DNA from: a virus
Strand: one strand, 5' to 3'
IMG/VR virus record: IMGVR_UViG_3300002854_000227
Location: 7,533 to 71,532 of that record
DNA: 64,000 nt
The notes beneath the pieces were generated by a model. That model was given only the letters and a program-made list of their open reading frames with translations, was not told where the DNA came from and did not search any database. Every line of letters begins with the position of its first letter. The first letter of the stretch is position 1. Both the position numbers and the translations under genes were made by a program. This document shows positions 20,215 through 64,000 of this stretch, in pieces.

Positions 20215-20430
20215 CTAATCCTGTTTCAACCGAATCTCTGAACCATCCTTTGGGTAGTGCTCGCCGTCTTCGAGAACAATCGTGATATCGGTTTGGCTAA
20301 TGATCCGACCGACGCCCATTAGTTCATCCACTTTATACTCCCCGGTCCCGAAGCGGTAGCCGTAAGTCCTCCAGACCTCAATCTCCACACAGGCAAGGAT
20401 CATCTCATTAAACTGCTTAACGTCCATCAT
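20215..20430 (-). CDS. Hypothetical protein, paralogue of 63538..63750
   Basis: GGGAGG RBS; near-identical C-terminal half to the prophage 2 copy. Confidence 0.75.
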   Translation of the reverse strand: MMDVKQFNEMILACVEIEVWRTYGYRFGTGEYKVDELMGVGRIISQTDITIVLEDGEHYPKDGSEIRLKQD

Positions 20431-20596
20431 AACGATTAGGCCTCCCGATCTCCCGAACAAATTTACCTCGATCGTCATAAACCAAAATGCTTAGTCCTTT
20501 AATTGCCCCCTTAGTCTCCATAAGTAGTCGAAATGCCTCGTCCCTCGATAACGATACGTTGATACGTTGCCCGTTGTAGGCAAGGTAGTACTTCAG
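20417..20596 (-). CDS. Small hypothetical protein (59 aa, apparent CTG start)
   Basis: GGAGG 7 nt before CTG; reads KYYLAYNGQRINVSLSRDEAFRLL...; stop overlaps next start region. Confidence 0.45.
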   Translation of the reverse strand: MKYYLAYNGQRINVSLSRDEAFRLLMETKGAIKGLSILVYDDRGKFVREIGRPNRYDGR

Positions 20597-63511: not shown

Positions 63512-63547
63512 ACAGCCCGAGGGCTTCGGCTCTCGGGTTATTTTTGT
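63512..63547. terminator. Probable bidirectional terminator
   Basis: AGCCCGAGGGC-TTCG-GCTCTCGGGTT followed by ATTTTTTG. Confidence 0.75.
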
Positions 63548-63750
63548 TTTATCCGGATCTCCGAACCATCCTTTGGGTAGTGCTCGCCGTCTTCGAGAAC
63601 GATCGTGATATCGGTTTGGCTAATGATCCGACCGACGCCCATAATCTCATCCACTTTGTAATCCCCTGTTCCGAAACTGTAGTCGTAGGTTCTCCAAACC
63701 TCAACCTCTACCCCGGCAAGGATCATCTCGTTAATCAGCTTCGCGTCCAT
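63538..63750 (-). CDS. Hypothetical protein, paralogue of 20215..20430
   Basis: GGAGTG RBS; same protein family as prophage 1 copy. Confidence 0.75.
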   Translation of the reverse strand: MDAKLINEMILAGVEVEVWRTYDYSFGTGDYKVDEIMGVGRIISQTDITIVLEDGEHYPKDGSEIRIKQK

Positions 63751-63785: not shown

Positions 63786-63815
63786 ATTCTATTGTTCAAA
63801 GAGCATTTATGTAAA
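63786..63815 (-). promoter_or_regulatory. sigmaA-like promoter for the 70-aa gene
   Basis: TTTACA-18-TAGAAT on minus strand. Confidence 0.55.
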
Positions 63816-63849
63816 GGCCAGCCATGCACGGCCAACTCGTTGCGGAATT

Positions 63850-63929
63850 CCGCGACCATCCCGGTCGTAGCCGGTAGGTTTCGGCCTCCTCCGCTGAAGG
63901 CCCAAGGCGCGAATGCGCTCGTCAGGCGG
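63850..63929 (-). ncRNA. Hammerhead ribozyme-like element (type I topology, extra hairpin in core)
   Basis: Minus strand CCGC-CUGACGA-[GCGC AUUC GCGC CUUG]-GGCCUUC agcgga GGAGGCC-GAAA-CC..CCGG cuacga CCGG..GG-UC/GCGG. Confidence 0.72.
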
Positions 63930-63934
63930 GTGCG

Positions 63935-64000
63935 CTACTGGTGCTCTGCGATGAAATTTTCGATCCGCTCTATCACGTCTTCCAAATCCGCGAAAGAGTC
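63935..64000 (-). CDS. 3' end of a gene starting outside the window
   Basis: Minus strand reads ...DSFADLEDVIERIENFIAEHQ* ending just before the ribozyme-like element. Confidence 0.5.
   Translation of the reverse strand, partial: DSFADLEDVIERIENFIAEHQ

What the first reader, a model, noticed from the sequence alone, without database searches (positions are those of the whole stretch)
63842..63934. Hammerhead ribozyme variant with an extra hairpin in the core and a competing fold
Seen on the minus strand, starting just after a stop codon: stem I CCGC/GCGG, core CUGACGA, an inserted GCGC-AUUC-GCGC hairpin plus CUUG, stem II GGCCUUC/GGAGGCC, GAAA, and stem III CC..CCGG/CCGG..GG. The GUC cleavage triplet predicts a cut between 63854 and 63853. 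The 3' strand of stem I is also half of a perfect palindrome, GCGGAAUUCCGC, which competes with the active fold and would cap the 3' product. Known: CUGANGA, GAAA and NUH define hammerheads; canonical ones have no insertion after A9. Inference: a possibly switchable self-cleaving RNA that processes the prophage's minus-strand accessory transcript upstream of the orphan gene shared by both prophages.
Basis: partly seen in the sequence, partly recalled or inferred. Interest (0 to 1): 0.8.

Follow-up and report, generated by a model that had tools for sequence, protein, structure and literature searches.

The report
Hammerhead ribozyme with extra core hairpin
This is very probably a real self-cutting hammerhead RNA between two small prophage genes; it belongs to a common phage family but carries a rare, conserved extra hairpin in the normally invariant catalytic core.

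Summary
On the minus strand, 63929-63850 holds CCGC / CUGACGA / a GCGC-AUUC-GCGC hairpin plus CUUG / a 7-bp stem II / GAAA / stem III / GUC / GCGG. It starts 5 nt after a stop codon.

Rfam finds nothing. However, Rfam also misses canonical relatives.

A pattern scan found more than 130 copies of the same type I hammerhead in phage contigs, often 5-7 per contig. A covariance model built from them hits the window once (34.8 bits, E 1.4e-6).

The 16-nt hairpin cassette sits exactly where about half the family has one bulged U, between A9 and G10.1. It defines a rare subfamily of 21 distinct members in Cohnella, Paenibacillus, Bacillus and Desulfosporosinus prophages. All have intact cores and covarying stems. 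Near-identical relatives carry only the U.

The "competing palindrome" needs revising. Its 3' half (UCCGC) is first of all the covarying pseudoknot partner of loop II, so it is part of the active fold. A GCGG...CCGC hairpin at the 5' end of the 3' product is nevertheless conserved family-wide.

Cleavage is inferred, not shown.

The scan has noted prophage hammerheads on other DNA before, but no look-alike of this sequence.

Verdict: new variant of a known kind.

The parts
63935..63937 (-). Stop codon (TAG) of the upstream 101-aa coiled-coil ORF; the ribozyme starts 5 nt later
63926..63929 (-). Stem I, 5' strand (CCGC)
   Evidence: Pairs with 63850-63853. CG/CG/GC/CG in 20 of 20 subfamily members, with rare compensatory changes in the wider family
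63919..63925 (-). Catalytic core strand C3-A9 (CUGACGA)
   Evidence: C3, G5, A6, G8 and A9 are invariant in all 150 aligned family members, and U4 in 147 of them, including the 42 that were not retrieved by a pattern that fixed these bases
63903..63918 (-). Inserted cassette between A9 and G10.1: hairpin GCGC-AUUC-GCGC (63918-63907) plus 4-nt linker CUUG (63906-63903)
   Evidence: Present in 21 distinct relatives and 98.8% paired. One compensatory pair (C-G to U-A). Loop variable (3-5 nt). Absent, replaced by a single U, in near-identical relatives L160, L067 and L003
63883..63902 (-). Stem II (GGCCUUC/GGAGGCC, 7 bp) with loop II AGCGGA (63895-63890)
   Evidence: (5 of 7 pairs change on both sides among relatives)
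63879..63882 (-). Core G12 A13 A14 A15.1 (GAAA)
   Evidence: invariant in the family
63855..63879 (-). Stem III: A15.1-U16.1, two C-G pairs, bulged U, U-A, an A.G mismatch, then CCGG/CCGG closed by CUACGA
   Evidence: The bulged base varies (U/C/A) in relatives. L114 has a fully paired 8-bp version
63853..63854 (-). Predicted scissile bond: after C17 (63854), before G1.1 (63853)
   Evidence: Position follows from the hammerhead rule (cleavage 3' of NUH). Position 17 is C or A, never G, in 150 relatives. Cleavage itself was not tested
63850..63853 (-). Stem I, 3' strand (GCGG); also the 5' arm of the alternative hairpin GCGG-AAUU-CCGC
63842..63846 (-). UCCGC: pseudoknot partner of loop II (G63894-A63890); also the 3' arm of the alternative hairpin
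   Evidence: covarying loop II / tail pairs; mean complementary run 4.0 vs 3.67 +/- 0.06 with permuted tails
63796..63841 (-). Conserved block on the 3' product: ACGAG, an 8-bp G.U-rich hairpin (63836-63817), then single-stranded CCUUUACAUA..UGCUCUUUGA. Function unknown
63538..63750 (-). Downstream 70-aa ORF (Shine-Dalgarno sequence GGAG about 10 nt before the ATG). A paralogue in the other prophage (about 20216-20431, minus strand) has no ribozyme

Best explanation
A functional type I, pseudoknot-stabilised hammerhead ribozyme lies in the intergenic spacer of a minus-strand accessory operon at the right end of the prophage.

Proposed sequence of events:
1. As the RNA is made, stem I (CCGC/GCGG), stem II and stem III form around the CUGACGA / GAAA core.
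2. Loop II (GCGGA) pairs with UCCGC, 7 nt past the cut site, to lock stems I and II side by side.
3. The RNA cuts itself between C63854 and G63853.

Fate of the products:
- The upstream message (113-aa and 101-aa genes) keeps the folded ribozyme as a structured 3' end with a 2',3'-cyclic phosphate.
- The downstream piece starts with a 5'-OH. The 4-bp stem I falls apart, and GCGG refolds with the now free CCGC into a hairpin at the very 5' end. This makes the cut irreversible and probably shields the 70-aa gene's leader.

The new feature is a 16-nt cassette (a GCGC/GCGC hairpin plus CUUG) at the A9/G10.1 junction. That is the one place where the family otherwise tolerates a bulged U. The cassette turns the three-way junction into a four-way junction. 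The 4-nt linker has about the length needed to return across the hairpin's end to G10.1.

Shown here: anatomy, family membership, conservation and covariation.
Inferred: cleavage, the fate of the products, and any role of the cassette.
For: (1) Every defining core base is present.

(2) The homologue of the upstream gene in L003 is followed by a near-canonical hammerhead at the same place.

(3) 134 copies were found in 91 phage contigs with the same stem I, and many contigs hold 5-7 copies. A first model built from 12 canonical members (R1) found 181 matches, the window among them (25 bits). A second model built from the best 150 of those matches (R2) hits the window once (34.8 bits, E 1.4e-6).

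(4) In the 21-member insertion subfamily, 97% of cells are paired versus 30-42% when the partners are slid. Stem II has 5 of 7 pairs with changes on both sides. RNAalifold independently returns stems I, II and III and the inserted hairpin.

(5) The pseudoknot covaries.

(6) There is a clean indel: window, L135 and L068 carry the cassette, while L160, L067 and L003 carry a single U in an otherwise near-identical ribozyme.

(7) Cores are intact in all cassette-bearing members across four genera and many gene contexts. A scan anchored only on the cassette and stem III found no decayed copy.

(8) CCGC lies within 30 nt of the cut in 91 of 121 members, versus 1-29 for control tetramers. It is separate from the pseudoknot partner in 54 of 152. 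The 5'-terminal hairpin is predicted for the 3' product.

(9) The ribozyme starts 0-6 nt after an upstream stop codon in 15 of 22 relatives.

(10) Prophage hammerhead arrays and the pseudoknot are published (PMC3088659). [quoted passage not shown]
Against: - No cleavage assay and no RNA data exist.
- Rfam hammerhead models give no hit even at E<=10.
- The A9 phosphate / G10.1 region is a functionally sensitive part of the core (my own knowledge of hammerhead structures). No natural hammerhead with a whole helix there turned up in the literature I could search, so activity may be reduced.
- Stem I is only 4 bp, and the secondary-structure energy of the active fold (-34.0) is no better than the alternative (-34.5). 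The minimum-free-energy fold is a third structure (-41.2).
- Covariation inside the inserted hairpin is thin: one compensatory pair in one clade, so common descent could explain its conservation.
- Several conserved columns were fixed by my search patterns.
- A promoter-like site (TTTACA-18-TAGAAT, 63815-63786) could make the downstream gene independent of processing.
Confidence: 0.77

Rival explanations
1. Gated (switchable) hammerhead. The cassette and/or the palindrome hold the ribozyme off until a signal arrives (a protein, the terminating ribosome 5 nt upstream, temperature or Mg2+). For example, the linker UU could pair with A13-A14, or the GCGG-AAUU-CCGC hairpin could sequester both the stem I strand and the pseudoknot partner.
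For: - RNAalifold proposes U-A pairs between the linker UU and A13/A14 in 19-20 of 20 members.
- The active and alternative folds are isoenergetic.
- The cassette's stem and linker sequences are more conserved than stems II and III, including columns not fixed by my patterns. In the two scans that did not require it, all 8 long-insert members had the same GCGC...CUYG.
- The ribozyme abuts a stop codon.
Against: - The proposed UU:AA pairs never vary, so they carry no covariation signal. They flank a G.G mismatch.
- No ligand-pocket-like conservation: the hairpin loop is free to vary.
- The palindrome's 3' half is explained by the pseudoknot.
- High conservation can reflect a single recent origin.
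Confidence: 0.15
2. Dead relic. The cassette insertion inactivated a once functional hammerhead, and what is seen is inherited sequence without catalytic function.
For: - An insertion of 16 nt next to A9 is unprecedented in the papers I could search.
- Rfam gives no hit.
- The 4-bp stem I competes with a local hairpin.
Against: - There are 21 distinct cassette-bearing sequences from at least four genera and varied gene neighbourhoods.
- The GUC triplet, A15.1-U16.1, the 3' strand of stem I, stem III and the pseudoknot partner were not fixed by the two patterns that retrieved most members, and they are intact in all 21. CUGANGA, GAAAC and the 5' strand of stem I were required by every retrieving pattern, so their presence adds nothing here.
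- Stems II and III and the pseudoknot have diverged by compensatory changes.
- No decayed copy was found in a core-agnostic scan.
Confidence: 0.1
3. The signal is a DNA-level or chance feature. For example, the perfect palindrome GCGGAATTCCGC could be a protein operator, with the hammerhead resemblance accidental.
For: - The palindrome is perfect and contains GAATTC.
- CCGCCTGANGA-like 11-mers with one mismatch occur at chance frequency in the window.
Against: - The model E-value is 1.4e-6, with a single hit.
- In relatives the 'loop' of the palindrome varies in sequence and length (AAAU, GAAC, AUCU, GUUA, AAU). Only the RNA pairing potential is kept.
- The neighbouring hairpin pairs through G.U, that is, only on this strand as RNA.
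Confidence: 0.02

Closest known systems
Type I hammerhead ribozymes with a loop II / stem I-extension pseudoknot, arranged around single genes in prophages (Perreault et al. 2011, PMC3088659)
   Same: - Same core, same topology (stem I open), and the same kind of pseudoknot.
- Same setting: intergenic, prophage, neighbouring genes not constant, often several copies per phage.
   Different: - A 16-nt hairpin-plus-linker cassette lies between A9 and G10.1.
- The paper's listed core insertions are A6a, U13a and 2a/2b. Its held supplements did not contain the cassette sequence or the host genera.
- Rfam 15 hammerhead models do not reach threshold on this family at all.
Hammerheads with one extra nucleotide between A9 and G10.1: CChMVd (+) (De la Pena and Flores 2001, cited in PMC4209133) and Penelope-like-element hammerheads (PMC4209133)
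   Same: The same insertion site. About half of the phage family studied here also has a bulged U there.
   Different: Those carry a single bulged base. Here a 4-bp helix with a 3-5-nt loop and a 4-nt return linker makes a four-way junction.
RiboJ-type synthetic insulators: a hammerhead followed by a hairpin upstream of a ribosome-binding site (Lou et al. 2012, from my own knowledge; the part is used in PMC7536230)
   Same: Ribozyme cut, then a hairpin at or near the new 5' end, then a ribosome-binding site and gene. This is the arrangement seen in 75% of the natural family.
   Different: - Natural rather than engineered.
- The hairpin reuses the 3' strand of stem I, so it can form only at the expense of the active fold.
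- The effect on expression is untested.
Pseudoknot-containing hammerhead solved by crystallography (PMC11300833)
   Same: Hammerhead core with a pseudoknot as the tertiary brace, and a G10.1-C11.1 pair next to the A9.G12 sheared pair.
   Different: In that form the pseudoknot helix replaces helix II and comes from an extra stem-loop (helix IV). Here helix II is intact, its loop makes the pseudoknot, and the extra hairpin sits on the other side of the core.

Membership tests
Hammerhead ribozyme class | Core strand C3 U4 G5 A6 N7 G8 A9 | tested here: met
   CUGACGA at 63925-63919. In the 150 aligned relatives C3, G5, A6, G8 and A9 are invariant and U4 is present in 147
Hammerhead ribozyme class | Core strand G12 A13 A14 followed by the A15.1-U16.1 pair | tested here: met
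   GAAA at 63882-63879. A63879 pairs with U63855. A-U in 20 of 20
Hammerhead ribozyme class | Cleavage triplet N-U-H, with H not G, followed directly by the 3' strand of stem I | tested here: met
   GUC at 63856-63854, then GCGG. Position 17 is C (143) or A (7) in relatives
Hammerhead ribozyme class | Three helices (I, II, III) around the core, supported by covariation | tested here: met
   97% of cells paired, 7 pairs with changes on both sides, and slid controls at 30-42%
Hammerhead ribozyme class | G10.1-C11.1 pair directly contiguous with A9 and G12 | tested here: inconclusive
   C11.1 (63883) is contiguous with G12. G10.1 is either G63902, which is 16 nt away from A9, or G63918, which is contiguous with A9 but would turn stem II into a three-way junction. 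Both candidates are G in all members, so covariation cannot decide
Hammerhead ribozyme class | Site-specific self-cleavage giving a 2',3'-cyclic phosphate and a 5'-OH | not testable with these tools
   No RNA run was listed for the window or for a Desulfosporosinus relative
Rfam hammerhead families (RF00163, RF00008, RF02275-RF02277) | Score at or above the family's gathering threshold | tested here: not met
   No hit at gathering or at E<=10. The same models also miss canonical relatives: best 19.5 bits against a threshold of 48.5 on L015, which has 6 copies
Phage type I pseudoknot hammerheads (Perreault 2011 type; own models R1/R2) | Significant full-length match to a covariance model of the family built without the window | tested here: met
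   R1: 25.0 bits, E 0.003 in 838 kb. R2: 34.8 bits, E 1.4e-6, the only hit in the window
Phage type I pseudoknot hammerheads (Perreault 2011 type; own models R1/R2) | Loop II pairs with the tail just 3' of stem I | tested here: met
   GCGGA (63894-63890) with UCCGC (63846-63842). At least five covarying sequence types among relatives

The most novel reading that the evidence does not exclude
The cassette makes this a natural allosteric or gated hammerhead. A conserved hairpin plus CUUG linker wedged beside A9, together with a 3' tail that can either brace the active fold (pseudoknot) or lock it off (palindromic hairpin), would let a protein, the terminating ribosome or a physical signal decide when the phage transcript is cut. 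This would be the first natural four-way-junction, regulated hammerhead.
Probability: 0.12. Interest if true: 0.8.

Novelty: new variant of a known kind. Interest (0 to 1): 0.52.

Why it matters
The hammerhead core is one of the best studied and most invariant RNA active sites, and its known natural insertions are one or two bases.

A whole helix tolerated, and conserved, beside A9 in more than 20 prophage loci would tell structural biologists where the core can be opened. It offers a natural scaffold for engineering aptamer-controlled ribozymes at a new attachment point, and it comes with its own control (near-identical relatives with a single U).

The work also shows that current Rfam models miss an abundant phage hammerhead family with a 4-bp stem I. 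It further shows that three quarters of that family can refold the 3' product into a 5'-terminal hairpin, a natural counterpart of synthetic ribozyme insulators. That gives a testable role for bacterial hammerheads, whose function is still unclear.

Tried and rejected
- Rfam at gathering threshold and at E<=10, on the window and on relatives: no hammerhead hit.
- blastn of the region against GenBank phages: no match.
- Protein-seeded locus searches in viral contigs with both flanking ORFs: nothing.
- Exact 20-mer of core plus cassette in viral contigs: nothing.
- P0002/L004, the second homologue of the upstream gene: no ribozyme downstream.
- Metagenome scan for long A9-G12 spacers: 14 loci, of which only 3 were real (L099, L100, L105). 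The rest were coding-sequence coincidences.
- Half of the genome-contig hits were likewise coincidences (Rhizobium and others) and were discarded because they lack the hairpin, the GUC and stem I.
- Sequencing runs: none was listed for the window. For the Desulfosporosinus relative, no RNA holder was listed.
- Literature searches for a hairpin insertion at A9/G10.1, four-way-junction hammerheads, or Paenibacillus hammerheads: nothing relevant.
- Pairing of the linker CUUG with the downstream CGAG: fits some members, but not the Desulfosporosinus or L121 members, so it was dropped.
- Pairing of ACGAG with CUCUU to enclose the downstream hairpin: 4 of 5 pairs with shifting mismatches, not convincing.
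- Reading the downstream block as a sigma-70 promoter: only the -35-like TTTACA is conserved and the -10 is not. Left open.
- Second hammerhead half-site in CCGC-N-ACGAG: there is no GAAA, so it was rejected.

Full report
**What is there**

The window is bases 7533-71532 of a 73,952-base IMG/VR provirus record. On the minus strand, a 101-aa coiled-coil ORF of unknown function ends with TAG at 63937-63935. Five bases later the sequence reads, in order:

- CCGC (63929-63926)
- CUGACGA (63925-63919)
- GCGC-AUUC-GCGC (63918-63907)
- CUUG (63906-63903)
- GGCCUUC-AGCGGA-GGAGGCC (63902-63883)
- GAAA (63882-63879)
- an interrupted stem III ending in GGU (to 63855)
- C (63854)
- GCGG (63853-63850)
- AAUU-CCGC (63849-63842)

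A 70-aa ORF follows at 63750-63538, and a bidirectional terminator at 63514-63539 closes the unit against the converging lysis genes.

**Is it a hammerhead?**

Rfam 15 says nothing, even at E<=10 on a 400-base slice. That turned out to be a weakness of the models, not of the candidate.

- The closest homologue of the upstream ORF (66% identity, a soil metagenome contig, L003) is followed directly after its stop codon by a near-canonical type I hammerhead: CCGC, CUGAUGA, one extra U, a 6-bp stem II, GAAA, a 5-bp stem III with a GAGA loop, GUC, GCGG. Rfam misses that one too.
- A pattern that fixed only stem I, the core and GAAAC found 134 copies in 91 phage contigs, with up to seven per contig. 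Stems II and III differ in almost every copy but always pair.
- Rfam at gathering threshold finds none of them. It does find a pistol and a twister ribozyme next to one of them.
- I built a covariance model from 12 canonical members (R1). It found 181 matches in the loci held, including the window at 25 bits.
- I rebuilt the model from the best 150 matches (R2). On the window alone, R2 gives one hit, 63929-63840 minus strand, at 34.8 bits and E 1.4e-6.
- Among the 42 aligned members that my original pattern had not forced, C3, G5, A6, G8, A9, G12-A14, A15.1 and U16.1 are invariant, and position 17 is C or A, never G.

This is the prophage-associated, pseudoknot-braced hammerhead family of Perreault et al. 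2011 (PMC3088659).

**The extra hairpin**

In the family, the segment between A9 and G12 is 15-24 nt long, except in a small group where it is 36-37 nt. The extra 16-17 nt are always the same kind of cassette: a 4-bp GCGC/GCGC stem, a free 3-5-nt loop, and CUUG (rarely CUCG).

Further scans of viral, metagenome and genome collections brought the group to 21 distinct sequences. They come from:

- Cohnella (L114, L135)
- Paenibacillus (L120, L121, L124, L125)
- Bacillus sp. FJAT-26390 (L137)
- six Desulfosporosinus genomes
- uncultivated phages

On their alignment:

- 97% of cells pair, against 30-42% when the partners are slid.
- Stem II has changes on both sides in 5 of 7 pairs.
- The inserted hairpin is 98.8% paired, with one compensatory change (C-G to U-A in Desulfosporosinus) and two wobble changes.
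- RNAalifold returns the same four helices without being told.

The cassette lies exactly where 71 of 152 family members have a single unpaired U, directly after A9. Near-identical ribozymes exist with the U instead of the cassette. L160 has the same stem II, loop II and stem III as the window. L067 matches L068 in the same way.

So the site is between A9 and G10.1. That junction is already known to accept one extra base in a viroid hammerhead and in Penelope-element hammerheads (PMC4209133 and its citation of De la Pena and Flores 2001).

An equally possible register keeps G63918 as G10.1 and lets the hairpin branch out of stem II. The data cannot separate the two.

All 21 members keep an intact core. 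The flanking genes differ between loci. A scan anchored on the cassette and stem III alone found no decayed copy. That pattern is what selection on an active ribozyme predicts, although part of the core conservation was imposed by my search patterns.

**The 'competing palindrome'**

GCGGAAUUCCGC is indeed a perfect palindrome. In nearest-neighbour terms, the fold that uses it (-34.5 kcal/mol) equals the hammerhead secondary structure (-34.0).

But its 3' half, UCCGC, is complementary to loop II (GCGGA). Across relatives this loop-to-tail pairing changes in step:

| Loop II : tail | Where |
|---|---|
| GCGGU:ACCGC | L121, L139 |
| UGGGU:ACCCA | Desulfosporosinus |
| UGGGU:ACCCG | L114 |
| UGGAU:AUCCG | L125 |
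| GGAU:AUCC | L003 |
| UGGCGG:CCGCCA | L099, L100 |
| GGC:GCC, GAC:GUC, GGUU:AACC | the wider family |

The mean complementary run is 4.0, against 3.67 +/- 0.06 with permuted tails.

This is the tertiary pseudoknot that Perreault et al. showed to be needed for fast cleavage. In L099 and L100 it is 6 bp, while the palindrome-type hairpin would be only 4. So the CCGC belongs to the active fold first.

Even so, a CCGC within 30 nt of the cut is present in 91 of 121 members (control tetramers: 1-29). In 54 of 152 it is separate from the pseudoknot partner. RNAalifold on the 3' products predicts the GCGG/CCGC hairpin at the very 5' end.

My reading is that the two structures are successive rather than rival. 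Stem I and the pseudoknot form before the cut. After the cut, the 4-bp stem I dissociates, and the 5'-terminal hairpin then blocks re-ligation and probably protects the 5'-OH end. This last step is an inference.

**How it most likely works**

The ribozyme starts 0-6 nt after an upstream stop codon in 15 of 22 relatives examined, and a ribosome-binding site follows within 40-130 nt in most.

- Because the ribozyme is type I, almost all of it stays on the upstream fragment as a structured 3' end.
- The downstream gene gets a new, hairpin-capped leader.
- The effect would be to uncouple the fates of the two cistrons. This is the role proposed, but never proven, for prophage hammerhead arrays.
- It also parallels synthetic RiboJ insulators.

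A promoter-like site (TTTACA-18-TAGAAT, 63815-63786) lies between the cut and the 70-aa gene. If it is active, the ribozyme would act only on read-through RNA. The other copy of the 70-aa gene in the first prophage has no ribozyme.

**What the cassette does is open**

- Its stem and linker are more conserved than stems II and III, even in columns that my patterns left free.
- All eight long-insert members found by scans that did not specify the cassette carry it.
- RNAalifold also pairs the linker UU with A13-A14. That would be an off state, but those pairs never vary and so prove nothing.
- A neutral, tolerated decoration of recent single origin remains possible.

**Novelty and score**

Prophage hammerheads, their pseudoknot and their arrays are known, and this scan has noted them on other DNA many times.

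I found no description of a helix inserted at A9/G10.1, but the library is not complete. I therefore rate it a new variant of a known kind, of moderate interest. It is well supported by comparative evidence, but untested at the bench.

Noticed in passing
window 63796-63841 (-); also L003:3401-3445, L009, L010, L067, L135, L137, L158, L160, L164; L068:7245-7369 (-) without a ribozyme: A conserved block of about 46 nt follows the cut site in one clade: ACGAG, an 8-bp hairpin rich in G.U pairs (so it is an RNA feature of this strand; 6 pairs covary), then invariant single-stranded CCUUUACAUA..UG(C/U)UCUUUGA. After that the sequences diverge. In 9 of 10 cases it follows a hammerhead; once it stands alone. 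In three loci it abuts a converging terminator instead of a gene. Function unknown (released small RNA, protein site, or promoter/operator).
   Followed up: partly
L015, L044, L003, L020 and the window: Rfam 15 hammerhead models miss the whole phage family with the 4-bp CCGC/GCGG stem I. The best score was 19.5 bits for one of six copies in L015. A small home-made model finds 181 copies in 838 kb.
   Followed up: yes
L020:2659-2719 (-) and L020:5002-5059 (-); L015:3805-3890 (-): Pistol and twister-P5 ribozymes (above Rfam threshold), and a sub-threshold twister-P1-like match (45 bits), lie within a few kb of hammerhead copies in the same phage contigs.
   Followed up: no
flanks of family members, e.g. 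L046, L047, L087: CCGC is also enriched in the 30 nt upstream of the ribozyme (43 of 121). In some phages the upstream and downstream flanks resemble each other (..cgccgcaaaaccauu..), as if the ribozyme had been inserted into, or duplicated with, a repeated spacer.
   Followed up: no
L137 (upstream of 3604), L010 (upstream of 13317), L120 (upstream of 3720): In three relatives the gene that ends just before the ribozyme encodes a short, strongly hydrophobic peptide (holin-like or type I toxin-like).
   Followed up: no
window about 20216-20431 (-): A paralogue of the 70-aa downstream ORF lies in the first prophage. Its start overlaps the end of the preceding frame and it has no ribozyme. The differences between the two copies look compatible with a real coding gene.
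   Followed up: partly
window 63815-63786 (-): A sigma-70-like site, TTTACA-18 nt-TAGAAT (10 of 12 matches), lies between the cut site and the 70-aa gene. The -35-like hexamer is invariant in the clade; the -10 is not.
   Followed up: partly
L105:1865-1943 (+): A different way of enlarging the same ribozyme: an extra small hairpin inside loop II rather than in the core.
   Followed up: no
L001:2715-2909 (+), beyond the window end: A 64-aa ORF with a sub-threshold BrnA / ribbon-helix-helix antitoxin match (24.5 bits against a cutoff of 26.1) near the prophage end.
   Followed up: no
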